From Candidatus Eiseniibacteriota bacterium (GTDB lineage Bacteria > Eisenbacteria > RBG-16-71-46 > CAVPCR01), in assembly GCA_963823555.1 (NCBI GenBank), contig CAWGMA010000001.1, positions 480,001 to 544,000 on the forward strand: a DNA stretch of 64,000 bases, read 5' to 3'. The translations under genes and the position numbers were made by a program. Positions 9,713-42,962 of the stretch are shown in pieces. The notes under the pieces were generated by a model that was not told the origin of the DNA, made no database searches, and worked only from the letters and a program-made list of their open reading frames with translations. The number at the start of each line of letters is the position of its first letter. Position 1 is the first letter of the stretch.

Positions 9713-9742
9713 TTGACAGCCGCGGGGCTTCTCTGCTATATT
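9713..9742 (+). promoter_or_regulatory. Near-consensus sigma70 promoter for the C25 protease array
   Basis: TTGACA(9713-9718)-18 nt-TATATT(9737-9742), extended -10 TG, AT-rich tract immediately upstream (9686-9712). Confidence 0.7.
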
Positions 9743-19662: not shown

Positions 19663-22600
19663 ATGAACCAGCGACGATCGATCCTCCTTTCCATTCGAGA
19701 ACCGGCCGCGGTGCTGAGTTGTTTGCTCCTTACCTCCGTGATTGCCGCCGGTGTGGTGGCGGCTCTTCCGGCGAGCCTCCGCGAGGAGGTGCGCTTCGCG
19801 GCGAGCGATCTCCGGCTGGAGGAACAGGCGGACGGCACGGTGGTGGTGCGCTACCCGGGAGCGGTAGGGTCGCCGGCCGGGTCGCCGGATCTGCCGCTCG
19901 TGCCGGTGTGGATCGAGGTGCCATCGGGGATGCGGGTGGTGGGGGTCAAGAGCCGGGCGCAGGGGGTGGCGGAGCTGGGAGTGGTGCGGGTGCGACCGGT
20001 GGCGCCGGACGTGCGCGTGGGTGAGGCGGAGAAGGCGGCGGTGGCGGACGCGGAGGTGTACGGGAGCGCGGGGCCGGTGCCTGGGGAGTGGGCGGTGCTC
20101 GCGAGCGAGGGGACGCTCCGCGGTCACCAGCTGGCGGGGGTGCTGGTGTCGCCGGTCAGGTGGTCGCCCGGGACGGGTCAGCTCGAGCGGGCGAGCGTGG
20201 TCGAGGTCGAGCTCGTCCTCGAGCCGGGGCGGCCGGCAGGGATGCCGGAGGCGGTCGAGCGGCGGCGGGTGTCGGCGGCGATCGAGTCGAAGTTCGAGGC
20301 GGACGCATCGAAGTGGATCCGCGGGTTCACCCCGGCGGCGGCGACCGAGGGTGGGGGCGATGCGGGGAGCGGTCCGGCGGGTCCGGGGCCGTACCAGCCG
20401 ACGTTCCGGCCGACGACGGACGGGAGCGCGGTGGAGTACGTGGTGGTGACGTCGGCGGCGCTGGCGGGGGAGTTCCAGCGGCTGGCGGACTGGAAGACGC
20501 AGAAGGGGGTGCAGGCGGCGGTCAGGACGGTCGAGTGGATCGACCAGACGTACCCGAACGGGGTGGACCGCGCGGAGCGGGTCCGGTTCTTCATCCGTGA
20601 CGCGTACCAGAACTGGGGGACGATGTACGTGCTCCTCGGTGGCGACACCGACATCGTGCCGCCCCGCTATGCGCAGATGGTCCTCTTCGACGAGCGGATT
20701 CCCGCCGACTACTACTTCGCGTGTCTCGACGGCAACTGGAACTACGACGGAGATTCGCGCTTCGGCGAGTCGCTTTCCGGCGGTCCCCCTGGGGATCAGT
20801 GCGATCTGCACTTCGAAGTGACGGTGGGTCGGGTTCCGGCGTCGACTCCGGATCAGGTCGCCCGCTTCGTCGATAAGTTGCTCCTCTACGAACAGAACCC
20901 GCCGGTCGAAGCACGCTACCCCGCGTCGATCCTGGTGCTGGCTGAGCGCCTCTTCACCACGCTTCACGGAGCGGATATCGCGGAGGAGGCGCTGGCCCTG
21001 GTGCCGTCCTGGATCCGCAAGGTGCGTCTCTACGAGGAGTCGGCGAGCTACCCCGGATCCATCGAGCTCAACCGGCAGGTGGCGGTCGATTCGATCAACG
21101 CCGGATTCGGCATCGTGCACCATGTCGGCCACGGCTATCGCAACACCATGTCGCTGGGTAGTGGCACGATGTCGAACGGGGATGCGGACAACCTGGTGAA
21201 CGCGCCGCGGAACTCGGTGGTGTTCGCCATCAACTGCAGCTCCGCCTCGATCGACTTCAACTCGATCGGGGAGCGCTGGGTGAAGAACGCGAACGGCGGC
21301 TCGATCGCCTATCTGGGCACCTCCCGCCTGGCCTTCGTAACGGCCTCGCGCGCCTACCAGGGCGAATGGTATGCCACCGTCTTCCAGGATTCGACTCGAT
21401 CGCTCGGTCTCGCCACCGATGAATCGCGTGCCATCTTCATTCCGGCCGCCCAGTTTGATGGCGTTCAGCGCTGGAACTTGCTGGCGACGACGTTGCTGGG
21501 GGATCCGGAGGTGGATCTGTACACGAACGCGGTGGTGCCGCTCGTGGTGACGCATGCCTCGACGACACCGATCGGGGGGGCGCCCTTGTCGGTGACGGTG
21601 ACGGCCGGGGGGTCGCCGGTGGCGGGAGCGACGGTGACGTTGTGGAAGGCGGGGGAGAGCTATGTCAGGGGGGTGACGGGAGCGAACGGTCAGGCGCAGC
21701 TGGCGGTGGGGGCGAACACGCCGGGGGCGATGACGGTGACGGTGCACAAGAGCTACTACCGGCCGTACGTGGGGACGGTGACGGCGACGAGCGCGAGCGG
21801 GCCGTACGTGTACGTGACGGGTCTGGTGGTGGACGACGACAACGTGGGCCAGTCGAGCGGGGACGGGGACGGGCGGGCGGATGCGGGGGAGACGGTGGAG
21901 CTCCGGGTGACGCTCCGGAACGGGGGAGGGGGGCAGGTGACGGGGCTGGTGGGGACGATCTCGGAGAACGATCCGGAGAACGCGCTGACGATCGTCCAGG
22001 CGACGGTGAGTTACGGGACGATCGCTCCGGGGGGTAGCACGCAGGGCAGCGGGGCCTTCGTGGTGACGATCGCGGAGAACGCGCCGGTGGCGTACCAGCC
22101 GGTGCTGACGGTGGTGGCGGCGGGGACGCAGGGGACGTGGGTGGACCCGGTGGTGCTGCCGCTCCGGCGGCCGTACCTGGAGCACTGGGGTCACGTGGTG
22201 GACGACGCGTCGCCGCGAGGCAACGGGAACGGGGTGGTGGAGGCGGGGGAGGAGATCTACTACCGGGTGACGGTGAAGAACACGGGGCAGGACGGATCGG
22301 TGGGGCTCGCGGGATCGCTCCGGGCGCTCCAGGTGTCGGACCGGCAGCCGCACCCCGGGGTGACGGTGGGGGATGGGGCATCGAGCTTCGGGACGCTCAC
22401 GCCGGGTCAGCAGGTGGAGGGGGATCGGTTCGCGTTCACGCTGAGCAGCCTGACCGATCCGACGACGGTGCTCCTCGAGCTCACGCTGACCGACGCGCTC
22501 GGGGTGGCGGCCGTTCAGTATATCGATCTGACTTCACCCTCTCCGCCCGGCACCTTCTCCGCCTTTGGCTCGCCGGGGACGATTCTCTTGACCTGGGAGC

Positions 22601-24495
22601 GAGCGCAGGCAAGCGACATCCGTGGCTATGACGTGCTTCGTTCGATCTCGCCCGGGGGCCCGTTCCAGCGGATCAACGCCTACACGGTGGACGGGACGGC
22701 GGCGTACGAGGATCGTGGGCTGCCGGCGTTGACGCGGTATTACTACCAGGTGGTGTCGCGGGACTCATCGTACAACGCGTCGGTGCCGTCGGCTGTCTTC
22801 TCCGGGACCACCAACCCGCCCGCGGCCGCCGGCTGGCCCCAGGAGCTGGCCCAGCAGAGCTCCTCCTCTGCCGTCATCGCCGATATCGACGGCGGCGCGC
22901 ACATCGAGCTCCTCTGCGGCTCCGATATGATGTATGCCTGGCACGGAGACGGCACCGAAGTCGTCGATGGCGATGATGACTCGCGCACCAACGGGCCCTT
23001 CTCCCTCCACGGGTGGAGCACGGATTCGTTCGGGTTCGCGTCCACCCCCGCCGTCGGCGATGTGGACGGCGACGGCGACCTCGAGGTCGCCAGTGTCGGG
23101 TTCACCTCCGATTCTCTCTTCGTGTGGCAGGGTAACGGACAGCTGTTCCCCGGCTGGCCCAAGTGGGTCATGGATGACCTCAACTGGGGATCGGTGGTGC
23201 TTGCCGATCTGGACCGGGATGGCGACCTGGAGATGATCGTCTGGGCTGCCAATGGCGGTCGACTCTTCGCCTGGCATCACACCGGACAGGAAGTGGTCGA
23301 CGGCGACGCCAATCCCGCCACCGACGGCATCCTGGCTCGTGTCCTCGGCACATCCTTCAACTACGGATCAGCCGCCGTCGGCAATCTCGACCAGGATCCC
23401 GAGCTCGAGATCGTGGCCCCCGTCAACTTCTCCCAGGATGACACGGGTCGCGTATACGCTTTCAACATCGACGGCAGCATGGTAGCAGGATGGCCCTTCA
23501 CGACCGGAAGCGGCACTCCCTCCGAGGTCAGCTCCTCCCCGGTCATCGCTGATCTCGACGGCGATGGAGACGAGGAGGTCATCTTCGCAGCCGAGCGCGA
23601 TTACGGTCGCCTCTACGTCCTCAATGGCAACGGCACCGTGGCCACGGGATGGCCGCAAAACGTGATCGCGCTCTCTGCGGATGCGCGACTGCCATCACCC
23701 GCGGTGGGCGACGTGGATGCCGATGGCGCGCTCGAGATCGTCTACGCCGATACCGAAGGCAAGCTCTTCGTGTTCGAGCGCAATGGCGCCCTGCATCCCG
23801 GATTTCCCCTCTGGTACTATCCCGATCCGCCAGGCGAGGCGACGCAGTCGACCCCGGTGCTCGGTGATATCGACGGGGATCCCGAACTGGAGATCGTGTT
23901 CGGAGACGAGTCGGGTGTGGTGCGTGGCTACAACGCCGATGGCTCGTTGGTCGCCGGGTTCCCCATCCGGCTCACTGGAGAGGTGCGCTCCTCGCCTGCG
24001 CTCTGGGACCTGGATCGCGACGGGCTCCTGGAGATGGCGGTCGTCGGGTTCGATTCCCAAGTCTACGTGTGGGATCTCACTGCCGAGTTCAACCCGCAGC
24101 GGTTGCCGTGGCCCTTCTTCCGCCACGACACGCGGAATACCGGGCGCTTCGTGACCGCGGTGCAGCCGATCGGTATCGCCGAGCCGGCAGCTGCTCCTGA
24201 GGTTGCCAGCGCCGCATTCCATGGCGCTCACCCCAATCCGTTCAATCCAACGACGACCCTCGGATTCGATGTGCCGGGCGAGACCGGTGGCGCTCAGATG
24301 GTGACGCTGGCCATCTACGACGTCGGCGGCCGCCTCTTGCGGCAGTTGATCGATGGACCGATCGCGACCGGATCCCATGCGGTCGAATGGGACGGTCGGA
24401 CGGTCGCCGGAGCTCAGGTGAGCTCGGGGGTCTATTTCGCCCACATCACGATCGGCGACTTTGTTGCCACCCGGAAGCTCGTCGTCGTGCGCTGA
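19663..24495 (+). CDS. C25 cysteine peptidase / FG-GAP / CTD protein, copy 3
   Basis: Signal peptide, HHVGHG, AINCSS, LLGDP, FG-GAP repeats, PNPFNP CTD. Confidence 0.9.
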   Translation: MNQRRSILLSIREPAAVLSCLLLTSVIAAGVVAALPASLREEVRFAASDLRLEEQADGTVVVRYPGAVGSPAGSPDLPLVPVWIEVPSGMRVVGVKSRAQGVAELGVVRVRPVAPDVRVGEAEKAAVADAEVYGSAGPVPGEWAVLASEGTLRGHQLAGVLVSPVRWSPGTGQLERASVVEVELVLEPGRPAGMPEAVERRRVSAAIESKFEADASKWIRGFTPAAATEGGGDAGSGPAGPGPYQPTFRPTTDGSAVEYVVVTSAALAGEFQRLADWKTQKGVQAAVRTVEWIDQTYPNGVDRAERVRFFIRDAYQNWGTMYVLLGGDTDIVPPRYAQMVLFDERIPADYYFACLDGNWNYDGDSRFGESLSGGPPGDQCDLHFEVTVGRVPASTPDQVARFVDKLLLYEQNPPVEARYPASILVLAERLFTTLHGADIAEEALALVPSWIRKVRLYEESASYPGSIELNRQVAVDSINAGFGIVHHVGHGYRNTMSLGSGTMSNGDADNLVNAPRNSVVFAINCSSASIDFNSIGERWVKNANGGSIAYLGTSRLAFVTASRAYQGEWYATVFQDSTRSLGLATDESRAIFIPAAQFDGVQRWNLLATTLLGDPEVDLYTNAVVPLVVTHASTTPIGGAPLSVTVTAGGSPVAGATVTLWKAGESYVRGVTGANGQAQLAVGANTPGAMTVTVHKSYYRPYVGTVTATSASGPYVYVTGLVVDDDNVGQSSGDGDGRADAGETVELRVTLRNGGGGQVTGLVGTISENDPENALTIVQATVSYGTIAPGGSTQGSGAFVVTIAENAPVAYQPVLTVVAAGTQGTWVDPVVLPLRRPYLEHWGHVVDDASPRGNGNGVVEAGEEIYYRVTVKNTGQDGSVGLAGSLRALQVSDRQPHPGVTVGDGASSFGTLTPGQQVEGDRFAFTLSSLTDPTTVLLELTLTDALGVAAVQYIDLTSPSPPGTFSAFGSPGTILLTWERAQASDIRGYDVLRSISPGGPFQRINAYTVDGTAAYEDRGLPALTRYYYQVVSRDSSYNASVPSAVFSGTTNPPAAAGWPQELAQQSSSSAVIADIDGGAHIELLCGSDMMYAWHGDGTEVVDGDDDSRTNGPFSLHGWSTDSFGFASTPAVGDVDGDGDLEVASVGFTSDSLFVWQGNGQLFPGWPKWVMDDLNWGSVVLADLDRDGDLEMIVWAANGGRLFAWHHTGQEVVDGDANPATDGILARVLGTSFNYGSAAVGNLDQDPELEIVAPVNFSQDDTGRVYAFNIDGSMVAGWPFTTGSGTPSEVSSSPVIADLDGDGDEEVIFAAERDYGRLYVLNGNGTVATGWPQNVIALSADARLPSPAVGDVDADGALEIVYADTEGKLFVFERNGALHPGFPLWYYPDPPGEATQSTPVLGDIDGDPELEIVFGDESGVVRGYNADGSLVAGFPIRLTGEVRSSPALWDLDRDGLLEMAVVGFDSQVYVWDLTAEFNPQRLPWPFFRHDTRNTGRFVTAVQPIGIAEPAAAPEVASAAFHGAHPNPFNPTTTLGFDVPGETGGAQMVTLAIYDVGGRLLRQLIDGPIATGSHAVEWDGRTVAGAQVSSGVYFAHITIGDFVATRKLVVVR
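19768..20670 (+). repeat. Near-identical block A, copy 1 (propeptide to start of catalytic domain)
   Basis: Reads almost base-for-base as 24621-25517 and 29614-30502; boundaries approximate. Confidence 0.9.
21484..22510 (+). repeat. Near-identical block B, copy 1 (end of catalytic domain plus Ig-like stalk)
   Basis: Matches 26334-27360 and 31313-32339. The ORF track shows near-identical shadow ORFs at 21642/26492/31471 (131 aa) and 21665/26515/31494 (238 aa). Confidence 0.92.
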
Positions 24496-24545
24496 GGTCC
24501 AATCATGACGAAGTCCCTGCAACAGCGAAACTCTGGAGTCGACTG

Positions 24546-27500
24546 ATGATGAACCGCTGCCACGGCATGCCGCTCTTGATCCTGATGCTCTTGGTATCCG
24601 TCGGCGCCGCCCACTCGAGCCCGGCGAGCCTCCGCGAGGAGGTGCGCTTCGCGGCGGGCGATCTCCGGCTGGAGGAACAGGCGGACGGCACGGTGGTGGT
24701 GCGCTACCCGGGAGCGGTAGGGTCGCCGGCCGGGTCGCCGGATCTGCCGCTCGTGCCGGTGTGGATCGAGGTGCCATCGGGGATGCGGGTGGTGGGGGTC
24801 AAGAGCCGGGCCCAGGGGGTGGCGGAGCTGGGAGTGGTGCGGGTGCGGCCGGTGGCGCCGGACGTGCGCGTGGGTGAGGCGGAGAAGGCGGCGGTGGCGG
24901 ACGCGGAGGTGTACGGGAGCGCGGGGCCGGTGCCCGGGGAGTGGGCCCGGCTCGGGAGCGAGGGGACGCTCCGCGGTCACCAGCTGGCGGGGGTGCTGGT
25001 GTCGCCGGTCAGGTGGTCGCCGGGGACGGGTCAGCTCGAGCGGGCGAGCGTGGTCGAGGTCGAGCTCGTCCTCGAGCCGGGAGCGGTAACTTCGGGTGTC
25101 GTCGAGCGGCGGCGGGTGTCGGCGGCGATCGAGTCGAAGTTCGAGGCGGACGCATCGAAGTGGATCCGCGGGTTCACCCCGGCGGCGGCGACCGAGGGTG
25201 GGGGCGATGCGGGGAGCGGTCCGGCGGGTCCGGGGCCGTACCAGCCGACGTTCCGGCCGACGACGGACGGGAGCGCGGTGGAGTACGTGGTGGTGACGTC
25301 GGCGGCGCTGGCGGGGGAGTTCCAGCGGCTGGCGGACTGGAAGACGCAGAAGGGGGTGCAGGCGGCGGTCAGGACGGTCGAGTGGATCGACCAGACGTAC
25401 CCGAACGGGGTGGATCGGGCGGAGCGGGTCCGGTTCTTCATCCGTGACGCGTACCAGAACTGGGGGACGATGTTCGTGCTCCTCGGTGGCGACACCGATA
25501 TCGTGCCGCCCCGCTATATCGAGAGTTCCTACTACGGCCAGGAGTCGATTCCCGCCGACTACTACTACGCGTGTCTCGACGGCAACTGGAACTACGACGG
25601 AGATTCGCGCTTCGGTGAAGCGCGATTCTATGCCGTGCAGTCCGATTCAGTGGACTTCCATTTCGACGTCTCGGTCGGCCGGGCGCCGGTTTCGACGCTG
25701 ACCGAGGCGGATACTTTCGTCGACAAGACACTCCTCTACGAGCAGAACCCACCCATCCTGGCGCGCTATCCGGCGTCGATCCTGGTGCTGGCTGAGCGCC
25801 TGTTCCCGAGCACCCATGGTGCCGACATCGCGGAGGAGGCGCTGGCCCTGGTGCCGTCCTGGATCCGCAAGGTGCGTCTCTACGAGGAGTCGGCGAGCTA
25901 CCCTGGATCCATCGAGCTAAACCGGCAGGTGGCGGTCGATTCGATCAACGCCGGATTCGGCATCGTGCACCACGTCGGCCACGGCTACCGCAACACGATG
26001 TCGGTGGGCGCGGGAACGCTCAACAATGCCGACTCCGATGCGCTCATGAACGCACCGAAGAACTCGGTGGTGTTCGCCATCAACTGCAGCTCCGCCTCGA
26101 TCGATTTCAATTCGATCGGGGAGCGCTGGGTGAAGAACGCGAACGGCGGCTCGATCGCCTATCTGGGCACCTCCCGCCTGGCCTTCATCGCTGCCTCCGA
26201 GGCGTATCAAAACGCCTGGTACTCGACCGTCTTCCAGGATTCGGTGCGTTCGATCGGGACGGTCTCCAACCTGGGCCGCATGGCCCTCTATCCCAACGCG
26301 GAGTATGAGTCGGCGAACCGCTGGAATCTGATGGCGACGACGTTGCTGGGGGATCCGGAGGTGGATCTGTACACGAACGCGGTGGTGCCGCTCGTGGTGA
26401 CGCATGCGTCGACGACACCGATCGGGGGGGCGCCCTTGTCGGTGACGGTGACGGCCGGGGGGTCGCCGGTGGCGGGAGCGACGGTGACGTTGTGGAAGAG
26501 CGGGGAGAGCTATGTCAGGGGGGTGACGGGAGCGAACGGTCAGGCGCAGCTGGCGGTGGGGGCGAACACGCCGGGGGCGATGACGGTGACGGTGCACAAG
26601 AGCTACTACCGGCCGTACGTGGGGACGGTGACGGCGACGAGCGCGAGCGGGCCGTACGTGTACGTGACGGGTCTGGTGGTGGACGACGACAACGTGGGCC
26701 AGTCGAGCGGGGACGGGGACGGGCGGGCGGATGCGGGGGAGACGGTGGAGCTCCGGGTGACGCTCCGGAACGGGGGAGGGGGGCAGGTGACGGGGCTGGT
26801 GGGGACGATCTCGGAGAACGATCCGGAGAACGCGCTGACGATCGTCCAGGCGACGGTGAGTTACGGGACGATCGCTCCGGGGGGTAGCACGCAGGGCAGC
26901 GGGGCCTTCGTGGTGACGATCGCGGAGAACGCGCCGGTGGCGTACCAGCCGGTGCTGACGGTGGTGGCGGCGGGGACGCAGGGGACGTGGGTGGACCCGG
27001 TGGTGCTGCCGCTCCGGCGGCCGTACCTGGAGCACTGGGGTCACGTGGTGGACGACGCGTCGCCGCGAGGCAACGGGAACGGGGTGGTGGAGGCGGGGGA
27101 GGAGATCTACTACCGGGTGACGGTGAAGAACACGGGGCAGGACGGATCGGTGGGGCTCGCGGGATCGCTCCGGGCGCTCCGGGTGTCGGACCGGCAGCCG
27201 CACCCCGGGGTGACGGTGGGGGATGGGGCATCGAGCTTCGGGACGCTCGTGCCGGGTCAGCAGGTGCAGGGGGATCGGTTCGCGTTCACGCTGGGGGGAG
27301 CGACCGACCCGACGACGGTGCTGCTCGAGCTCACGCTGACCGACGCGCTCGGGGTGGCGGACTTGGAGCTGCTGGACGTGCTGCATCCGGACTCGCCGGA
27401 CACGCTGAAGGCTTTCGGTTCGCCGTCCTCGATCCGCTTGACGTGGAACCGCTCGGCGGCGACGGATGCGAAGGGTTACGACGTGTACCGGTCGAGCTCG

Positions 27501-29345
27501 CCCGGGGGGCCGTTCCAGCGGATCAACGCCTACACGGTGGACGGGACGGCGGCGTACGAGGATCGTGGGCTGCCGGCGTTGACGCGGTATTACTACCAGG
27601 TGGTGTCGCGGGATTCGTCGTACAACGCGTCGGTGCCGTCGGTGGTGATCTCGGGGACCACCAACCCGCCCTACACCCCCGGCTGGCCGATCGAGCTCGC
27701 CCAGCAGAGCGCATCCTCCGCCGTCATCGCCGACATCGATGGTGGCTCACACACCGAGATCATGTGCGGCGGCGACGTGCAATACGCCTGGCATGGGGAT
27801 GGCACCGAGGTCGTCGACGGCGACGACGATGATCGGACCAACGGCCCCTTCTCCCTCTACGGCCGGCGGACCACGACCTCCGGCTTCGCTGCCACGCCGG
27901 CGATCGGCAACATCGACCTCGCCGGTCGTCTGGAGGTGGTCAACATCGGCTTCACAGCCGACTCGCTCTACGTATGGAACAATGTCGGACAGCTGATGAG
28001 TGGTTGGCCCAAGTGGGTCATGGGCGACTTCAACTGGGCCTCGGTCATGCTTCCGGATCTCGATCTCGACGGAGATCTCGAGATCGTGGCCTGGGCGGCG
28101 AATGGCGGTCGCCTCTTCGCCTGGCATCACAACGGGCAGGAAGTGGTCGACGGCGACGCCAATCCCGCCACCGATGGCATCCTGGCCCGGATCCTCGGCG
28201 CGTCGTTCAACTACTCGAGCCCCGCGGTCGCCAATCTGGATGCCGATCCTCAGCTCGAGATCCTCGTTGCGGTCAATCGGTCCACGGACAATACGGGAGG
28301 CGTCTATGCCTTCAACACGAACGGGACCCCGGTTCCCGGCTGGCCCTTCCTGACCGGCAGCGCGCAGAATCCATCGGAGGTCAGCTCATCCCTGGCGGTG
28401 GCCGACCTCGACGGTGACGGAGACGAGGAGATCATCTTCGCAGCCGAGCGCGACGGCGGCCGCGTCTATGTGCTGAATGGCAACGGGACCGTGGTTCCGG
28501 GATGGCCGAAGGCTGCTGCTGCCTATACCCAGGACGCGCGCCTGCCATCTCCCGTGGTCGCGGATCTAGATGACGACACCTCCCTCGATGTCGTCTTTCC
28601 CGATACCGACGGCAACCTCTGGGCCTGGAACCGCAACGGCGCGGTCCTGCCCGGATATCCGGTCGTCTACTATCCCAACGCCCAGACGCAGACGACGCAG
28701 TCGACACCGGCCGTGGGAGACGTCGACGGCGATCTCGACCCCGAGGTCATCTTCGGTGACGAGGCCGGTTTCGTTCACGGCTACAACGGTGACGGCACAC
28801 TGGCGGCGGGCTTCCCCATCCAGGTGGGGGGCGAGGTCCGTTCGACTCCGGCGATCTGGGATCTGGACCGGGACAACCGGGTCGAGGTCGTCGCCGTCTG
28901 CTACGACTCCAATGTCTATTCCTGGGATCTCCCGGGACGCTTCAATCCACAGCGCATCCCGTGGCCATTCTTCCGCCATGACATCCGCAACACGGGACGC
29001 TTCCTCACTTCGGTTCAGATCGGAATCGACGAGCCGGATGCGGTGCCGGTGCCGGGCGTGGCCGCTTTCCACCTGGCGCGACCCAACCCGTTCAATCCGG
29101 CGACCACGCTGGCCTTCGACGTGCCTGGCAAGGCAGGCGGCGCGCGACCGGTGACCCTCGACATCATCGATGTCTCGGGACGTCTGGTGCGTCGCCTCCT
29201 CGACGGCCCCGTCGAGACCGGTTCCCATGCCCTGGTCTGGGATGGGCGCCAGTCGAGCGGAGGCATGTCTCCCTCCGGCGTTTACTTCGCCAGGATCGCG
29301 ATCGGCAGCTTCACCGCCACCCAGAAGCTCACGCTCGTGCGATGA
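24546..29345 (+). CDS. C25 cysteine peptidase / FG-GAP / CTD protein, copy 4
   Basis: Start MMNRC after GGAG, signal peptide, HHVGHG, AINCSS, FG-GAP repeats, PNPFNP CTD. Confidence 0.9.
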   Translation: MMNRCHGMPLLILMLLVSVGAAHSSPASLREEVRFAAGDLRLEEQADGTVVVRYPGAVGSPAGSPDLPLVPVWIEVPSGMRVVGVKSRAQGVAELGVVRVRPVAPDVRVGEAEKAAVADAEVYGSAGPVPGEWARLGSEGTLRGHQLAGVLVSPVRWSPGTGQLERASVVEVELVLEPGAVTSGVVERRRVSAAIESKFEADASKWIRGFTPAAATEGGGDAGSGPAGPGPYQPTFRPTTDGSAVEYVVVTSAALAGEFQRLADWKTQKGVQAAVRTVEWIDQTYPNGVDRAERVRFFIRDAYQNWGTMFVLLGGDTDIVPPRYIESSYYGQESIPADYYYACLDGNWNYDGDSRFGEARFYAVQSDSVDFHFDVSVGRAPVSTLTEADTFVDKTLLYEQNPPILARYPASILVLAERLFPSTHGADIAEEALALVPSWIRKVRLYEESASYPGSIELNRQVAVDSINAGFGIVHHVGHGYRNTMSVGAGTLNNADSDALMNAPKNSVVFAINCSSASIDFNSIGERWVKNANGGSIAYLGTSRLAFIAASEAYQNAWYSTVFQDSVRSIGTVSNLGRMALYPNAEYESANRWNLMATTLLGDPEVDLYTNAVVPLVVTHASTTPIGGAPLSVTVTAGGSPVAGATVTLWKSGESYVRGVTGANGQAQLAVGANTPGAMTVTVHKSYYRPYVGTVTATSASGPYVYVTGLVVDDDNVGQSSGDGDGRADAGETVELRVTLRNGGGGQVTGLVGTISENDPENALTIVQATVSYGTIAPGGSTQGSGAFVVTIAENAPVAYQPVLTVVAAGTQGTWVDPVVLPLRRPYLEHWGHVVDDASPRGNGNGVVEAGEEIYYRVTVKNTGQDGSVGLAGSLRALRVSDRQPHPGVTVGDGASSFGTLVPGQQVQGDRFAFTLGGATDPTTVLLELTLTDALGVADLELLDVLHPDSPDTLKAFGSPSSIRLTWNRSAATDAKGYDVYRSSSPGGPFQRINAYTVDGTAAYEDRGLPALTRYYYQVVSRDSSYNASVPSVVISGTTNPPYTPGWPIELAQQSASSAVIADIDGGSHTEIMCGGDVQYAWHGDGTEVVDGDDDDRTNGPFSLYGRRTTTSGFAATPAIGNIDLAGRLEVVNIGFTADSLYVWNNVGQLMSGWPKWVMGDFNWASVMLPDLDLDGDLEIVAWAANGGRLFAWHHNGQEVVDGDANPATDGILARILGASFNYSSPAVANLDADPQLEILVAVNRSTDNTGGVYAFNTNGTPVPGWPFLTGSAQNPSEVSSSLAVADLDGDGDEEIIFAAERDGGRVYVLNGNGTVVPGWPKAAAAYTQDARLPSPVVADLDDDTSLDVVFPDTDGNLWAWNRNGAVLPGYPVVYYPNAQTQTTQSTPAVGDVDGDLDPEVIFGDEAGFVHGYNGDGTLAAGFPIQVGGEVRSTPAIWDLDRDNRVEVVAVCYDSNVYSWDLPGRFNPQRIPWPFFRHDIRNTGRFLTSVQIGIDEPDAVPVPGVAAFHLARPNPFNPATTLAFDVPGKAGGARPVTLDIIDVSGRLVRRLLDGPVETGSHALVWDGRQSSGGMSPSGVYFARIAIGSFTATQKLTLVR
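24621..25517 (+). repeat. Near-identical block A, copy 2
   Basis: Direct repeat of 19768-20670 with short substituted patches (ARLG, AVTSGV). Confidence 0.9.
26334..27360 (+). repeat. Near-identical block B, copy 2
   Basis: Direct repeat of 21484-22510 (offset 4850). Confidence 0.92.
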
Positions 29346-29488
29346 GGCGACGCCGCGATCGGGGTCCAGTCAGTATTTGCAGTCGGTCCTCGGGGCCGAC
29401 CGCGGGCTACGAGAACAGGGCCGGGAGAGACCGGCCGGTCATCGCGCACCGCCTGCCATGAACGGCGATGCGTTGAAGGAGCACAGAC

Positions 29489-32400
29489 ATGAAGGGGCGC
29501 CGTAAGCCGCGCACGGGTTGCAATCGCTCGATTCTCACTCTGCTGCTCTGTCTCTCTGCGCTGGGATCCTCCGCCTCCATGGAGGCGATCGAGGCCGAGG
29601 CGGCGACAAGGGTCGAGGAGGTGCGCTTCGCGGCGAGCGATCTCCGGCTGGAGGAACAGGCGGACGGCACGGTGGTGGTGCGCTACCCGGGAGCGGTAGG
29701 GTCGCCGGCCGGGTCGCCGGATCTGCCGCTCGTGCCGGTGTGGATCGAGGTGCCATCGGGGATGCGGGTGGTGGGGGTCAAGAGCCGGGCCCAGGGGGTG
29801 GCGGAGCTGGGAGTGGTGCGGGTGCGGCCGGTGGCGCCGGACGTGCGCGTGAGCGACGAAGAGAAGGCGGCGGTGGCGGACGCGGAGGTGTACGGGAGCG
29901 CGGGGCCGGTGCCTGGGGAGTGGGCGGTGCTCGCGAGCGAGGGGACGCTCCGCGGTCACCAGCTGGCGGGGGTGCTGGTGTCGCCGGTCAGGTGGTCGCC
30001 GGGGACGGGACGGCTCGAGCGGGCGAGCGTGGTCGAGGTCGAGCTCGTCCTCGAGCCGGGGCGGCCGGCAGGGATGCCGGAGGCGGTCGAGCGGCGGCGG
30101 GTGTCGGCGGCGATCGAGTCGAAGTTCGAGGCGGACGCATCGAAGTGGATCCGCGGGTTCACCCCGGCGGCGGCGACCGAGGGTGGGGGCGATGCGGGGA
30201 GCGGTCCGGCGGGTCCGGGGCCGTACCAGCCGACGTTCCGGCCGACGACGGACGGGAGCGCGGTGGAGTACGTGGTGGTGACGTCGGCGGCGCTGGCGGG
30301 GGAGTTCCAGCGGCTGGCGGACTGGAAGACGCAGAAGGGGGTGCAGGCGGCGGTCAGGACGGTCGAGTGGATCGACCAGATGTACCCGAACGGGGTGGAT
30401 CGGGCGGAGCGGGTCCGGTTCTTCATCCGTGACGCGTACCAGAACTGGGGGACGCGCTACGTGCTCCTCGGTGGCGACACCGATATCGTACCCCCGCGCT
30501 ACGCGCAGATGGTCGTCTACAATGCCGAGCAGATTCCCGCTGACTACTACTACGCGTGCCTCGACGGGAACTGGAACGCCGATGGGGATTCGCGCTTCGG
30601 AGAATCGCTCTTCGGCGGTGGGGATGAGTGCGACTTCTATGCCGAGGTGAACGTCGGGCGGGCGCCGGTGTCGACGCTGGCCGAGGCCGATACCTTCGTC
30701 GACAAGACGCTCCTCTACGAGCAGAACCCGCCGCTCTCCTCCCGTTACCCGGCCTCCTTCCTCGCCCTCGCCGAGCGCCTCTTCACCGATATTCACGGTG
30801 CCGACATCGCCGAGGAGGCGATTGACTTCCTGCCGCCATGGATGCGCGTCGTCCGGCTGTACGAGGAGTCGGCGAGCTATCCGGGGTCGATCGAGCTGAC
30901 GAAGGACGCAGCGATCGACTCGATCGACGCCGGGTTCGGGATCGTGCACCATGTCGGCCACGGCTATCGCAACACCATGTCGCTGGGTAGTGGCACGATG
31001 TCGAACGGGGATGCGGACAACCTGGTGAACGCGCCGCGGAACTCGGTGGTGTTCGCCATCAACTGCAGCTCCGCCTCGATCGACTTCAACTCGATCGGGG
31101 AGCGCTGGGTGAAGAACCCGAACGGCGGCTCGATCGCCTATCTGGGCACCTCCCGTCTCTCCTTCGTGGCGGCTGCCGAGACCTACCAGGGCGAGTGGTA
31201 TGCCCGGGTGTGGCAGGACTCGGTGCGAAGCCTCGGTCCTGTCACTGATTTTGCCCGCCAGTCCCTCATCCCGGGTTCCGACTACGACTCGGCGAACCGC
31301 TGGAACTTGCTGGCGACGACGTTGCTGGGGGATCCGGAGGTGGATCTGTACACGAACGCGGTGGTGCCGCTCGTGGTGACGCATGCCTCGACGACACCGA
31401 TCGGGGGCTCGCCCTTGTCGGTGACGGTGACGGCCGGGGGGTCGCCGGTGGCGGGAGCGACGGTGACGTTGTGGAAGGCGGGGGAGAGCTATGTCAGGGG
31501 GGTGACGGGAGCGAACGGTCAGGCGCAGCTGGCGGTGGGGGCGAACACGCCGGGGGCGATGACGGTGACGGTGCACAAGAGCTACTACCGGCCGTACGTG
31601 GGGACGGTGACGGCGACGAGCGCGAGCGGGCCGTACGTGTACGTGACGGGTCTGGTGGTGGACGACGACAACGTGGGCCAGTCGAGCGGGGACGGGGACG
31701 GGCGGGCGGATGCGGGGGAGACGGTGGAGCTCCGGGTGACGCTCCGGAACGGGGGAGGGGGGCAGGTGACGGGGCTGGTGGGGACGATCTCGGAGAACGA
31801 TCCGGAGAACGCGCTGACGATCGTCCAGGCGACGGTGAGTTACGGGACGATCGCTCCGGGGGGTAGCACGCAGGGCAGTGGGGCCTTCGTGGTGACGATC
31901 GCGGAGAACGCGCCGGTGGCGTACCAGCCGGTGCTGACGGTGGTGGCGGCGGGGACGCAGGGGACGTGGGTGGACCCGGTGGTGCTGCCGCTCCGGCGGC
32001 CGTACCTGGAGCACTGGGGTCACGTGGTGGACGACGCGTCGCCGCGAGGCAACGGGAACGGGGTGGTGGAGGCGGGGGAGGAGATCTACTACCGGGTGAC
32101 GGTGAAGAACACGGGGCAGGACGGATCGGTGGGGCTCGCGGGAGCGCTCCGGGCGCTCCAGGTGTCGGACCGGCAGCCGCACCCGGGGGTGACGGTGGGG
32201 GACGGGGCATCGAGCTTCGGGACGCTCGCGCCGGGTCAGCAGGTGGAGGGAGATCGGTTCGCGTTCACGCTGAGCGGACAGGCGGATCCGACGACGGTGC
32301 TCCTCGAGCTCACGCTCACCGACGCGCTCGGGGTGGCGGCCGTCGAGCTGCTGGACGTGCTGCATCCGGACTCGCCGGACACGGTGAAGGCATTCGGTTC

Positions 32401-34312
32401 GCCGTCCTCGATCCGCTTGACGTGGAACCGGGCGGAGGCGGGGGACGCGAAGGGGTACGACGTCCTGCGGTCGAGCGCGCCGGGAGGACCGTTCCAGCGG
32501 ATCAACGCCTACACGGTGGACGGGACGGCGGCGTACGAGGACCCGGGTCTGCCGGCGCTGACGCGGTACTACTACCAGGTGGTGGCGCGGGACTCGTCCT
32601 ACAACGCATCGGTGCCGTCGGCGGTGATCTCGGGCACCACCAACCCGCCCAACACCCCCGGCTGGCCGATCGAGATCGCCCAGCAGACCCAGTCCTCGGT
32701 CGTCCTCTCCAACACCGCCGGCGGATCCGACTACGAGATCTTCACCGCGGCGGACTTCCAGTACGGCTGGCACGCCAACGGGACCGAGATCCTCGATGGC
32801 GACGACGATCCGCGCACCAATGGTCCCTACTCCCGCTACGGCTACAATTCAATCAAGGGATTCTCTGCCACCACCGCGATCGGGGATCTGGACGACGACG
32901 GCGACTTCGAGATCGTCAATGTCGGCTGGACGGCAGACACGCTCTACGTCTGGGACCACCAGGGTCAGCTCGCTCCGGGCTGGCCCAAGTGGATCATGGA
33001 TGACTTCAACTGGCCGTCCCCCGTCCTCTTCGACCTCGATGGCGACAGCGATCTCGAGATCATCCTCTGGGCGGGGAACGGCGGGCGCCTCTTCGCCTGG
33101 CATCACGATGGGACCGAGGTCGCCGACGGCGACAACAATCCCGCGACGGACGGCATCCTCTACCGCGTGCTCGGCACCTCCTACAACTACTCGAGCCCGG
33201 CGGTGGGGGATATCGACGGCGATCTCCGCCCGGAGATCGTGTTCGCCGTGAACCTGTCCTCGGACATGAGCGGCATGATCTACGCCGTGAACGACAACGG
33301 GACGCTCCTGTGGTCGCGCGCCACGGGGAACGCGAGCGAGCCGTCGCAGATCACGTCGTCACCGGCCATCACTCAACTCGATGGCGCCTTCACCAACGAT
33401 GTCATCTTCGCCGCCGACCGCAACGGGGGCCGCATCTATGCGCTCAATGGCCTCACCGGTGCCGATCTCCCGGGATGGCCGCGCTCGGCTCCGAGCGCCT
33501 CCGGCCAGTCGCGCGTGGGCTCGCCCGCGCTCGGGGATCTCGACAGCGATGGCTACCTCGATATCGCCTACCCGGCCTCGGATGGGCGGCTCTTCGCCTT
33601 CAAGCGCGACGGCACGCCGGTTTCGGGTTTCCCCGTGGTCTATGCCGCCGGCCTCACCGAGGCCACGCAGTCCACACCATCCATCGCCGACATCGACGGC
33701 GACGGCAGACTCGAGATCCTCTTCGGCGACGAGACCGGGAAGCTCCACGGGTACAATCATGACGGCACCCTCGTTGCCGGCTTCCCCATCCAGCTCGGGG
33801 GCGAGGTGCGCTCGACCCCGGTCGTGTGGGACATCGACCAGGACACGATGGTCGAGGTCGCCGTCGCCGGCTGGGACGGCCAGATCCACATCTGGGATCT
33901 GCCCGGCGAGTTCAACCCCCTGCGGACCCCCTGGCCCTTCTTCCGCCACGACGTGCGCAATACCGGATGGACGCAGACGGCGCCCCTGGCCGTCGGCATC
34001 GCCGAGCCGGACGCCGCACCCCAGCCGCCCACAGCACGTGTCTGGCCGGCGCATCCCAATCCCTTCAATCCCGCGACCACGATCGCCTTCGACGTTTCCG
34101 GACAGGGGGCGGTGCCGGTGGCGATCGGCGTGTATGATGTCGCTGGACGGCTCGTGCGCCAGCTCATCGATGCCCCGGTCGAGGCGGGCCATCATGCTCT
34201 CGTCTGGGATGGGCGCGGCCGGAACGGCACGGTGCTCGGATCAGGGATCTACTTCGTCCGGGTCGAGATCGGCAACCACGCGTTCAACCAGAAGGTGACG
34301 CTGATCAAGTGA
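29489..34312 (+). CDS. C25 cysteine peptidase / FG-GAP / CTD protein, copy 5
   Basis: AAGGAG RBS, signal peptide, HHVGHG, AINCSS, FG-GAP repeats, PNPFNP CTD. Confidence 0.9.
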   Translation: MKGRRKPRTGCNRSILTLLLCLSALGSSASMEAIEAEAATRVEEVRFAASDLRLEEQADGTVVVRYPGAVGSPAGSPDLPLVPVWIEVPSGMRVVGVKSRAQGVAELGVVRVRPVAPDVRVSDEEKAAVADAEVYGSAGPVPGEWAVLASEGTLRGHQLAGVLVSPVRWSPGTGRLERASVVEVELVLEPGRPAGMPEAVERRRVSAAIESKFEADASKWIRGFTPAAATEGGGDAGSGPAGPGPYQPTFRPTTDGSAVEYVVVTSAALAGEFQRLADWKTQKGVQAAVRTVEWIDQMYPNGVDRAERVRFFIRDAYQNWGTRYVLLGGDTDIVPPRYAQMVVYNAEQIPADYYYACLDGNWNADGDSRFGESLFGGGDECDFYAEVNVGRAPVSTLAEADTFVDKTLLYEQNPPLSSRYPASFLALAERLFTDIHGADIAEEAIDFLPPWMRVVRLYEESASYPGSIELTKDAAIDSIDAGFGIVHHVGHGYRNTMSLGSGTMSNGDADNLVNAPRNSVVFAINCSSASIDFNSIGERWVKNPNGGSIAYLGTSRLSFVAAAETYQGEWYARVWQDSVRSLGPVTDFARQSLIPGSDYDSANRWNLLATTLLGDPEVDLYTNAVVPLVVTHASTTPIGGSPLSVTVTAGGSPVAGATVTLWKAGESYVRGVTGANGQAQLAVGANTPGAMTVTVHKSYYRPYVGTVTATSASGPYVYVTGLVVDDDNVGQSSGDGDGRADAGETVELRVTLRNGGGGQVTGLVGTISENDPENALTIVQATVSYGTIAPGGSTQGSGAFVVTIAENAPVAYQPVLTVVAAGTQGTWVDPVVLPLRRPYLEHWGHVVDDASPRGNGNGVVEAGEEIYYRVTVKNTGQDGSVGLAGALRALQVSDRQPHPGVTVGDGASSFGTLAPGQQVEGDRFAFTLSGQADPTTVLLELTLTDALGVAAVELLDVLHPDSPDTVKAFGSPSSIRLTWNRAEAGDAKGYDVLRSSAPGGPFQRINAYTVDGTAAYEDPGLPALTRYYYQVVARDSSYNASVPSAVISGTTNPPNTPGWPIEIAQQTQSSVVLSNTAGGSDYEIFTAADFQYGWHANGTEILDGDDDPRTNGPYSRYGYNSIKGFSATTAIGDLDDDGDFEIVNVGWTADTLYVWDHQGQLAPGWPKWIMDDFNWPSPVLFDLDGDSDLEIILWAGNGGRLFAWHHDGTEVADGDNNPATDGILYRVLGTSYNYSSPAVGDIDGDLRPEIVFAVNLSSDMSGMIYAVNDNGTLLWSRATGNASEPSQITSSPAITQLDGAFTNDVIFAADRNGGRIYALNGLTGADLPGWPRSAPSASGQSRVGSPALGDLDSDGYLDIAYPASDGRLFAFKRDGTPVSGFPVVYAAGLTEATQSTPSIADIDGDGRLEILFGDETGKLHGYNHDGTLVAGFPIQLGGEVRSTPVVWDIDQDTMVEVAVAGWDGQIHIWDLPGEFNPLRTPWPFFRHDVRNTGWTQTAPLAVGIAEPDAAPQPPTARVWPAHPNPFNPATTIAFDVSGQGAVPVAIGVYDVAGRLVRQLIDAPVEAGHHALVWDGRGRNGTVLGSGIYFVRVEIGNHAFNQKVTLIK
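29614..30502 (+). repeat. Near-identical block A, copy 3
   Basis: Direct repeat of the block A sequence. Confidence 0.9.
31313..32339 (+). repeat. Near-identical block B, copy 3
   Basis: Direct repeat of the block B sequence (offset 4979 from copy 2). Confidence 0.92.
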
Positions 34313-42433: not shown

Positions 42434-42880
42434 CTAGCCCTCGGTTCCGGTTCCGGCCCGGCGGAGGGCGCGCAGGAGTTCGTCCGGCTCGTCGGTGCCG
42501 ATGCGGAAGGTCCGGCCGTTCTTGAACTCGAGTTCGACCGCGTCGCGTCCGGAGACGTTGTAGAGCCAGCCCGATCCAGCCCAGCGGACGCCGTAACCCG
42601 TGAACCAGGAGTTCTTGACCGCCCGGGCCCTCGCGATCTGATCCAGCGGAATCGTCCGGCGCGGCAGACCGAGGCCGAAATGCACCTCGATGGTGCCGTC
42701 ACCGATACGGACCGTGAGGGTGGTGAAGAGGATCACGCAGGCGGCGACCGCGAGGAGGACGCCGACGACGCCAGCCGGCCAGCCTTCCCGCGCTCCGACC
42801 CAGATGAGAGCGGCGAAGGCCACGGCGAATGTGATGACCATCACCTTACCGACCTGCGTGTGGTGATAGTTCTCACTCAT
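42434..42880 (-). CDS. Small membrane protein with two TM helices and a PH-like C-terminal domain
   Basis: Start MSENYHHTQ after GGAGGA; G.G.R....GWLYNVSG..AVEL, FRIGTDEP. Confidence 0.75.
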   Translation of the reverse strand: MSENYHHTQVGKVMVITFAVAFAALIWVGAREGWPAGVVGVLLAVAACVILFTTLTVRIGDGTIEVHFGLGLPRRTIPLDQIARARAVKNSWFTGYGVRWAGSGWLYNVSGRDAVELEFKNGRTFRIGTDEPDELLRALRRAGTGTEG

Positions 42881-42945
42881 GACAGTTCCTCCGCCGGCAA
42901 GCATATCATTGCTCAGCCCCGCGAGCACCGAGACTGGGGCTTCGA

Positions 42946-42954
42946 TGCTATATT
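42946..42954 (+). promoter_or_regulatory. Extended -10 element just upstream of the fusion gene start (possible leaderless promoter)
   Basis: TGCTATATT ends 8 nt before the ATG at 42963; no SD sequence in between. Confidence 0.4.
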
Positions 42955-42962
42955 CGGCCGCC

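What the first reader, a model, noticed from the sequence alone, without database searches (positions are those of the whole stretch)
19768..32640. Constant/variable mosaic in copies 3-5: patchwork consistent with gene-conversion shuffling
Seen: ~0.9-1 kb near-identical blocks A and B flank the catalytic domain, and inside it the sharing partner changes every few dozen codons. YAQMV: copies 3+5. NWNYDGDSRFG: 3+4. GRAPVSTL.EADTFVDKTLL: 4+5. EEALALVPSWIRK...NRQVAV: 3+4. MSLGSGTMSNGDADNLVNAPRN: 3+5 (identical DNA at ~21121-21220 and ~30950-31050). ELLDVLHPDSPDT.KAFGSPSS: 4+5. A single duplication tree cannot give this pattern, and all frames remain intact. Inference: ongoing intergenic recombination generates new combinations of substrate-contacting loops on a fixed scaffold, i.e. 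a protease-diversification system.
Basis: partly seen in the sequence, partly recalled or inferred. Interest (0 to 1): 0.82.

Follow-up and report, generated by a model that had tools for sequence, protein, structure and literature searches.

The report
Gene-converted protease copies with G-skew footprint
Four of nine related, likely secreted protease genes of an uncultured bacterium share kilobase-long near-identical stretches and short patches with changing partners, likely because DNA is repeatedly copied between them and mostly makes them more alike; these stretches, like the bacterium's two elongation-factor genes, are strongly G-rich on one strand, likely a footprint of how the copying is repaired.

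Summary
The mosaic is real. A sister species keeps the same array. The C-terminal part groups by gene position and the blocks group by genome, so this is gene conversion, not one duplication tree. Contigs from a public sample carry a different copy-4/copy-5 mix, so exchange is likely ongoing. The 'diversification system' reading is only partly supported: most variable loops are old and copy-specific, and the converting copies are more alike than in the sister species; only copy 3 looks rebuilt from its neighbours. New here: the long converted blocks have G at 82-90% of G-or-C silent sites (about 45% expected). The same bias marks both tuf genes but not their neighbours, and it turns to C in repeats of lagging-strand genes. 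This resembles GRINS but lacks the TA skew. Likely cause (untested): strand-polarised conversion in which C:C mismatches escape MutS. The scan noted GRINS-like mosaics before in other genomes.

The parts
9713..9742 (+). sigma-70-like promoter match (11 of 12, extended -10) ahead of the six-gene array; co-transcription is inferred
   Evidence: 1 found, shuffle mean 0.0; gene gaps are short or overlapping
10024..14856 (+). copy 1, C25 peptidase; not in the converting set
14864..19609 (+). copy 2, C25 peptidase; not in the converting set
19663..24495 (+). copy 3; the most overwritten copy (catalytic region 0.67 to own orthologue, 0.73-0.77 to paralogues)
19771..20730 (+). block A in copy 3 (propeptide and start of catalytic domain), G-skewed; shared with copies 4, 5 and the distant copy G000:C1:81146-86053
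   Evidence: fourfold sites G147/C32
20720..20760 (+).
   Evidence: p=0.0006
20974..20976 (+). Asp438, likely equivalent of the gingipain R S1 residue Asp163; outside the recent tracts
   Evidence: weak sequence alignment to 1cvr, helix start in the model, role of Asp163 from PMC4357240; inferred
21123..21270 (+).
21343..21462 (+). least-shared catalytic segment (57-59% DNA identity among copies 3-5): loop and helices after the strand that follows the catalytic Cys; likely lines the substrate site
   Evidence: placement inferred
21451..22500 (+). block B in copy 3 (Ig-like and linker domains), G-skewed; shared by copies 3-5 only
   Evidence: fourfold sites G198/C23
24546..29345 (+). copy 4 (likely start near 24546; the listed ORF from 24387 overlaps copy 3)
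24631..25590 (+). block A in copy 4
29489..34312 (+). copy 5
29611..30540 (+). block A in copy 5
31261..32730 (+). block B in copy 5 plus the 4+5 patch
32185..32344 (+). place where contigs of public sample S2 interleave copy-4 and copy-5 letters 15-23 nt apart: an alternative mosaic within the species
   Evidence: X2 record 16, X3 record 24
34309..39129 (+). copy 6; not in the converting set, no skew

Best explanation
Copies 3, 4, 5 and a distant fourth copy of an old family of likely secreted C25 peptidases share long near-identical blocks and short partner-switching tracts, likely through recurrent ectopic gene conversion that mostly makes them alike, while selection likely keeps the copy-specific loops and C-terminal propeller different. 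Shown: the array is older than the split from the sister species; blocks A and B were equalised afterwards within this genome; short tracts moved between changing partners; a different mosaic exists in a public sample. Inferred: long identity invites more conversion (self-reinforcing), divergent parts resist it, and rare short tracts into the catalytic domain give new combinations as a by-product, mainly in copy 3. The long-converted DNA carries a G-over-C bias whose sign follows the replication leading strand in most repeat families of this genome (shown as a correlation). Likely mechanism (inferred, untested, about 0.4): donor DNA pairs with the exposed lagging-strand template; a C:C mismatch escapes MutS and a G:G mismatch is repaired, so G accumulates on the leading strand each time a G/C difference is converted.
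For: Trees: C-terminal part gives orthologue pairs (97, 75, 100, 100), block A a G000 clade of four (100), block B a clade of copies 3-5 (100) and a separate G001 pair (100); AU rejects the exchange of these trees. Flanking genes are syntenic for the array and for the distant copy. The distant copy is on the opposite strand about 410 kb away and has block A only, which unequal crossing-over inside the array cannot give. G001 equalised block B between its copies 4 and 5 (197/220 silent sites) but not block A (102/146). Alternative haplotype in sample S2. Skew: block A G147 vs 81.5 expected of 179, block B 198 vs 99.8 of 221, C-terminal part 96 vs 125 of 273; the distant copy is skewed in A (141/37) and not in B (94/87); in block B 23 of 31 reference-C sites read G and 2 of 35 reference-G sites read C, against 12 of 63 and 11 of 31 in the C-terminal part. 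Two tuf genes +0.80 and +0.70, neighbours fusA -0.12, rplC -0.03, rplB -0.15; none of 2,664 repeat-free genes exceeds +0.4. Repeats in Pfam-confirmed lagging-strand genes are C-rich: -0.72, -0.52, -0.45, -0.39, -0.35. 31 of 34 duplicated regions with mean GC skew of at least 0.15 (of 70 found) have G on the leading strand (hand count; copies are not independent). MutS and MutL present, NucS not found. Lagging-strand annealing bias and C-C escape versus G-G repair are reported in E. coli recombineering (PMC5021808, passages).
Against: No raw reads and no contig spanning a whole gene were available. Copy 3's catalytic domain is closer to its paralogues than to its orthologue, so functional reassortment does occur. 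Selection on the loops was not measured and no substrate is known. For the skew mechanism: the distant copy is a lagging-strand gene with a G-rich block A (it fits only if the three array copies dominate); short converted tracts in the catalytic domain have no skew (mean absolute GC skew 0.05); 36 of 70 duplicated regions are weak or unskewed; mobile HNH copies in G001 are C-rich on the coding strand in both orientations, a 24-bp minisatellite in G001 goes the wrong way, and no native lagging-strand example turned up in 1.64 Mb of G001. The lagging-strand bias in PMC5021808 needed phage recombinases and was absent without them. Residual single differences in the blocks show no C-to-G excess (few sites). 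Outside this class tuf skew is patchy: 15 of 37 GC-rich loci exceed their flanks by more than 0.3. Leading strand was inferred from weak gene-strand differences.
Confidence: 0.7

Rival explanations
1. Selected diversification system: constant G-rich blocks act as recombination handles, possibly through G-quadruplexes or R-loops, so that active-site segments are shuffled to give new specificities.
For: Four significant partner-switching tracts, one across both catalytic residues. Copy 3 has lost similarity to its orthologue around the active site. Loose four-G-run motifs cluster in blocks A and B. The Borrelia vls cassettes combine conversion with G-rich coding strands (PMC11499132, passages). 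GRINS were proposed to speed diversification (PMC8256042).
Against: Loops of copies 4, 5 and the distant copy track orthology; within-genome diversity is lower than in G001. The likely S1 residue is Asp in all four converting copies here but Thr, Asp, Asp, Glu in G001. The same skew marks tuf, which is not a diversifying gene, and it turns to C in lagging-strand genes. The one alternative haplotype found lies at the end of block B, while the catalytic segment covered in that sample equals the assembly. No near-identical tracts among the fetched C25 copies of G003.
Confidence: 0.17
2. Conversion is real but the skew has another cause: error-prone, strand-specific DNA synthesis or damage during recombination, or codon selection spread quickly by conversion.
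For: The GRINS paper proposes error-prone replication. Concerted evolution can spread favoured codons (PMC6053082, passages). All skewed tuf genes are highly expressed (general knowledge).
Against: Ribosomal-protein genes and fusA next to tuf show no G preference, and lagging-strand repeats prefer C, which codon selection does not predict. A mutational cause is not excluded by any search here.
Confidence: 0.25
3. Assembly artefact: collapsed repeats or mixed strains were polished into identical blocks and chimeric patches.
For: The genome is an assembly of 4 contigs with end overlaps; no read-level data were available; no short-read contig spans a gene.
Against: Short-read contigs of two studies match copy-specific junctions, e.g. 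25569-25927 with 0 differences across 79 sites that separate it from copy 3 and 97 from copy 5. G001 shows its own equalised block. Polishing would not shift silent codons to G. All frames are intact.
Confidence: 0.04
4. Recent tandem re-duplication by unequal crossing-over produced the chimeras.
For: Copies 3-5 are adjacent and in one orientation.
Against: Copy number and order are the same in G001, C-terminal parts pair by position, partners switch many times within a gene, and the inverted distant copy takes part.
Confidence: 0.04

Closest known systems
[quoted passage not shown] 2021, PMC8256042; parts 1-4 of 5 of the text read, supplements not read)
   Same: About 1-kb repeats inside paralogous coding sequences, near-identical within a genome and divergent from orthologues, skew strongest at third codon positions, more Val and Gly, linked to gene conversion.
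   Different: Here only the GC skew is intense (0.25-0.31); the TA skew (0.08-0.14) is at background (0.135) and not positively correlated; no abrupt sign flips; the sign follows the leading strand; the host has MutS/MutL and no NucS was found; the genes are peptidases and tuf, not polyketide synthases.
Porphyromonas gingivalis gingipains RgpA/RgpB/Kgp (family C25; PDB 1cvr, 4rbm; PMC5266723 and PMC4357240, passages)
   Same: Same fold (Foldseek E=4e-20, TM 0.76 to 1cvr), His/Cys dyad, propeptide, Ig-like domain; paralogues with near-identical parts and domain rearrangements.
   Different: In RgpA/RgpB the catalytic domains are nearly identical and the propeptides differ; here the propeptide and Ig-like regions are identical and the catalytic loops differ. 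C-terminal FG-GAP repeats and FlgD-type tail instead of adhesin domains; 18% sequence identity; environmental host.
Concerted evolution of tufA/tufB and other bacterial paralogues (PMC6053082, passages)
   Same: Paralogues more alike within a genome than orthologues between species, with fixed genomic contexts.
   Different: Here it is segmental and recent (genus level; none seen in G003). The word 'skew' does not occur in that paper's main text.
Borrelia vlsE/vls cassette antigenic variation (PMC11499132, passages)
   Same: Segmental gene conversion, constant and variable regions, G-rich coding strand.
   Different: vls has one expressed locus and silent cassettes at about 90% identity; here all copies are full genes, variable parts are about 57-75% identical and old, and the G-rich strand is not always the coding strand elsewhere in the genome.

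Membership tests
Peptidase family C25 (gingipain) | Pfam PF01364 over the curated cut-off | tested here: met
   206-229 bits vs cut-off 23 in 6 of 6 copies
Peptidase family C25 (gingipain) | Gingipain fold with His/Cys dyad | tested here: met
   Model pLDDT 95.5; best matches RgpB and Kgp; His and Cys invariant in 72 aligned sequences
Peptidase family C25 (gingipain) | Proteolytic activity with Arg or Lys specificity | not testable with these tools
   Likely S1 residue varies among paralogues; no assay
GRINS | Duplicated region longer than 500 bp at more than 80% identity | tested here: met
   Blocks of 900-1,470 bp in four copies (blastn used in place of the paper's aligner)
GRINS | Mean absolute GC skew above 0.15 | tested here: met
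   0.25-0.31 in 7 of 7 long blocks; background 0.087
GRINS | Mean absolute TA skew above 0.15 | tested here: not met
   0.08-0.14 in 7 of 7 blocks; background 0.135
GRINS | Correlated GC and TA skews with abrupt sign changes (typical, not required) | tested here: not met
   r from -0.05 to -0.68; GC skew nearly one-signed within blocks
Concerted evolution by gene conversion | Paralogues cluster by genome in converted parts and by orthology elsewhere, with synteny kept | tested here: met
Concerted evolution by gene conversion | Non-reciprocal transfer seen directly | not testable with these tools
   Only an alternative haplotype in contigs
Cassette antigenic-variation systems (vls, pil type) | Silent donor cassettes and one expression locus | tested here: not met
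   All 9 full-length paralogues have intact frames of about 1,600 aa; expression itself was not tested
Cassette antigenic-variation systems (vls, pil type) | High-rate variation concentrated in variable regions under positive selection | tested here: inconclusive
   Loops mostly track orthology; no population sample of the catalytic domain beyond short contigs

The most novel reading that the evidence does not exclude
Bacterial gene conversion has a replication-polarised G-over-C drive: donor strands pair at the lagging-strand template and the mismatch-repair system filters which alleles survive. With MutS this writes a GC-only, leading-strand skew into any DNA under concerted evolution (these peptidase blocks, tufA/tufB, internal domain repeats) and even recodes protein; with NucS, which cuts G/G and T/T but hardly C/C and A/A, the same process would give the correlated GC+TA skews of GRINS. 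The skew would then be a single-genome marker of long-term conversion and an explanation for the unexplained origin of GRINS.
Probability: 0.3. Interest if true: 0.78.

Novelty: new variant of a known kind. Interest (0 to 1): 0.5.

Why it matters
Gene conversion between paralogues is known, and this locus is a clean new example with an outgroup and a within-species variant, not a new diversity generator. The added value is the composition footprint. GRINS were described in 2021 with cause unknown. This genome shows a GC-only form whose sign tracks the replication strand and which also marks tufA/tufB, a standard model of bacterial gene conversion, in 17 of 17 relatives where tuf was found. That gives a specific, cheap hypothesis (fork polarity plus mismatch-repair specificity) that can be tested in laboratory strains and across complete genomes. 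If true, silent-site composition in repeats would report recombination history, and conversion would be a force that changes codons and amino acids against the genome's normal preference.

Tried and rejected
Codon selection for high expression as cause of the skew: rejected, neighbours of tuf lack it. Amino-acid composition as cause: rejected, per-codon-box expectation used. Filing as GRINS: TA criterion failed. G-quadruplex handle: strict motif only once per block B and also elsewhere in the window on both strands; not decisive. X1 record 6 (copy-5 unique part joined to copy-3/4 letters in block B) and X1 record 2 were not counted as alternative mosaics, because identical stretches longer than a 31-mer lie between the marker sites. 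No RNA holder listed. Runs X6 and X7 gave contigs with more differences, likely relatives; not used. A planned table of identity per named segment was not produced, so segment-to-orthologue assignments rest on sliding windows, tract tests and alignments read by eye. The structure tools return no coordinates, so distance of each loop to the active site was not measured. G003 (4 loci) had no near-identical C25 tracts of 80 nt or more; G004 (8 short contigs) only 82-93% matches and one likely contig overlap. Two short-period minisatellites, one for and one against the strand rule, are treated as uninformative. Literature searches for a leading-strand skew in converted repeats or in tuf and for C25 arrays in Eisenbacteria listed no paper whose title or abstract start reports it; only openly licensed papers are covered, most hits were seen as listings only, and the GRINS supplements were not read and may bear on this.
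Full report
What is there. The window holds six tandem genes of about 1,600 codons at 10024-39129. Each has a C25 peptidase domain, FG-GAP repeats and a FlgD-type tail; a weak propeptide match shows in four. A model of copy 3's catalytic domain (pLDDT 95.5) matches gingipain R and K best (E=4e-20, TM 0.76), and the catalytic His and Cys are invariant in 72 aligned homologues. Homologues that carry a name are mostly from Candidatus Eisenbacteria, so the host is likely of that phylum. The genome has three more full-length paralogues. A strong promoter match precedes copy 1; co-transcription and secretion are inferred.

The observation. Blocks A and B are near-identical among copies 3-5, silent sites included: 180/188 and 229/231 fourfold sites for copies 3/4, against 111/218 in the C-terminal part. 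The other two are not, and are also present in orthologues. The last patch lies outside the catalytic domain.

Conversion, not duplication. The sister species G001 has the same six genes in the same order and the distant copy, with syntenic flanks. On ten sequences (copies 3-6 and the distant copy of both species; copies 1, 2 and two far paralogues left out) the C-terminal part gives orthologue pairs, block A gives a clade of the four G000 copies, and block B a clade of copies 3-5 plus a separate pair of G001 copies 4 and 5. AU tests reject the C-terminal tree for A and B and the reverse. The catalytic region fits none of the other trees well (p=0.002, 0.044, 0.048) and its own tree is poorly supported. 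G001 equalised block B but not block A; the fetched copies of G003 share no near-identical tracts. So the constant blocks are a recent, lineage-specific state and not a conserved scaffold.

Artefact check. No raw reads were available and no contig spans a gene. Short-read contigs from two studies match junctions between copy-specific and shared DNA, for example 25569-25927 with no difference. Contigs of sample S2 (two runs of one sample) carry copy-4-only and copy-5-type letters 15-23 nt apart at 32185-32344, closer than the 31-mers that build such contigs, at depth about 4. This is a different mosaic within the species. It shows reassortment; it does not show which form is older. Other apparent mosaics were set aside because long identical stretches separate their marker sites.

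Diversifying or homogenising. Over the variable catalytic region copies 4, 5 and the distant copy are 0.80, 0.74 and 0.81 identical to their own orthologues, and their most variable loops look orthologue-specific by eye. Within G000 the four converting copies are 0.73-0.77 identical there; the four G001 pairs computed are 0.65-0.75. The residue that likely corresponds to the S1 Asp163 of gingipain R (weak alignment; role from PMC4357240, passages) is Asp in all four here and Thr, Asp, Asp, Glu in G001. The segment after the catalytic Cys strand is the least shared (57-59%). Against this, copy 3 is only 0.67 identical to its orthologue, shares one tract with copy 4 and the tract across both catalytic residues with copy 5. 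The net effect is likely loss of difference, with copy 3 as a real chimera. There are no silent cassettes. A selected diversification system stays possible (0.17) but nothing here requires it.

The skew. The long blocks have G at most G-or-C silent sites: 147 of 179 in A and 198 of 221 in B, against 81.5 and 99.8 expected from codon boxes; the C-terminal part has 96 of 273. The distant copy is skewed only in the block it shares; G001 copies 4 and 5 are skewed in their shared block (+0.33, +0.37) and its other copies are not. Reference-C sites turn to G (23 of 31) far more than the reverse (2 of 35) in block B (the reference is a consensus of diverged copies, so polarity is approximate). Val and Gly rise (49 and 50 in block B of copy 4, against 32-38 and 36-43 in six other copies). 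None of 2,664 repeat-free genes exceeds +0.4 (genes called with my own script, which covers about 71% of the genome). Both tuf genes are at +0.80 and +0.70 while fusA and ribosomal-protein genes beside them lie mostly between -0.3 and +0.2. tuf is G-skewed in 17 of 17 genomes with a match, of 41 searched. In 80 other bacteria it is patchy: 30 of 44 loci with enough flank exceed their flanks, 15 of 37 GC-rich ones by more than 0.3.

Which strand. Repeat-free genes average -0.11 on the inferred leading strand and -0.19 on the lagging strand. Repeats in lagging-strand genes confirmed by Pfam are C-rich (-0.35 to -0.72). Of 70 duplicated regions, 34 have a mean skew of at least 0.15 and 31 of these have G on the leading strand (hand count; families are not independent and some are mobile). 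Exceptions and blanks: the distant peptidase copy, two more regions, 36 weak or unskewed duplicates, and the short tracts inside the catalytic domain. In 1.64 Mb of G001 two native families fit (both leading-strand), mobile copies are C-rich in both orientations, a minisatellite goes the wrong way, and no native lagging-strand case was found. The strand rule is therefore well supported in one genome and only weakly replicated.

Mechanism. In E. coli, single strands with the lagging-strand sequence recombine best when phage recombinases are present, C-C mismatches are not repaired and G-G are (PMC5021808, passages). If a donor strand pairs with the exposed lagging-strand template, a donor C opposite a template C survives and puts G on the leading strand, while the reverse case forms G:G and is removed. 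This predicts the sign seen and no strong TA skew. The genome has MutS and MutL; NucS was not found in a 92.5% complete assembly. NucS cuts G/T, G/G and T/T but hardly C/C, A/C and A/A (PMC4838380, abstract) and serves in an actinobacterium (PMC6159515, abstract), so the same logic would give the paired GC and TA skews of GRINS. All of this is inference. The same paper saw no strand bias without the phage recombinases, and a strand-specific mutational cause is not excluded.

Known kinds. An earlier scan note (e1-2078432) pointed me to GRINS (PMC8256042, parts 1-4 of 5 read; PMC10394414, passages). The blocks meet its length, identity and GC criteria and fail the TA criterion, so they work like GRINS but are not filed as such. 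That paper raises replication-strand bias and notes that it does not explain the sign flips, which are absent here. tuf conversion is well known (PMC6053082, passages). In P. gingivalis RgpA and RgpB share the catalytic domain and differ in the propeptide, the mirror image of this case (PMC5266723, passages). Borrelia vls pairs conversion with a G-rich coding strand but uses silent cassettes (PMC11499132, passages). Eight searches for a leading-strand skew in converted repeats or tuf listed no paper that reports it; coverage is limited to open papers and the GRINS supplements were not read.

Verdict. Observation confirmed; interpretation partly supported. New variant of a known kind. Interest 0.5: the mosaic itself is ordinary concerted evolution, while the GC-only, replication-polarised footprint makes an open question about GRINS directly testable.

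Noticed in passing
G000:C3:538366-539511 and C3:555231-556424 (L021, L020): Two near-identical tuf genes with fourfold G-over-C skew of +0.80 and +0.70, neighbours near zero. tuf skew is +0.23 to +0.90 in 17 of 17 genomes with a match (of 41 searched) and above the flanking genes in 14 of 15 with flank data.
   Followed up: yes
L047-L126: tuf skew outside this class is patchy: strong in 2 of 3 Gemmatimonadota loci and many beta/gamma-proteobacterial loci, absent in 4 of 4 GC-rich actinobacterial loci and many alphaproteobacterial ones; copy number and repair genes not checked.
   Followed up: partly
G000:C1:27586-30006, C3:475182-480439, C3:746003-750799, C4:655722-660533, C2:698759-700435: Likely secreted proteins with near-identical internal or tandem repeats on the lagging strand, all C-rich on the coding strand; PKD repeats are +0.56 and +0.08 in leading-strand genes and -0.45 in a lagging-strand gene.
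   Followed up: yes
G000:C1:466135-467713 and four more copies; C3:345846-348327 and C4:667800-670287: Two multi-copy families that look like HNH-type mobile genes: one G-rich on its coding strand with all five copies oriented G-rich strand leading, the other C-rich and on the lagging strand.
   Followed up: partly
G001:C1:1517682-1522066 (L213): Tandem pair of PAS histidine kinases with near-identical, G-skewed parts (+0.43) on the leading strand of the sister species.
   Followed up: partly
L001, L002 (G001 array): The G001 orthologues of copies 3 and 4 each have one extra base that breaks the frame; likely read errors, not checked.
   Followed up: no
whole genome G000: More than 100 places match the FlgD-type C-terminal tail of copy 4, a large set of likely secreted proteins with a shared sorting tail.
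   Followed up: no
G000:C1:1-8348 with C3:843900-852211; C2:713925-723326 with C4:1-9414: Contig ends overlap at 90% and 98.6% identity: assembly overlaps or strain mixture; these duplicates show no skew.
   Followed up: partly
window 42879-44888: Long ORF matching both an L,D-transpeptidase (YkuD) domain and Mur ligase domains; a fusion or an artefact of the ORF start was not checked.
   Followed up: no
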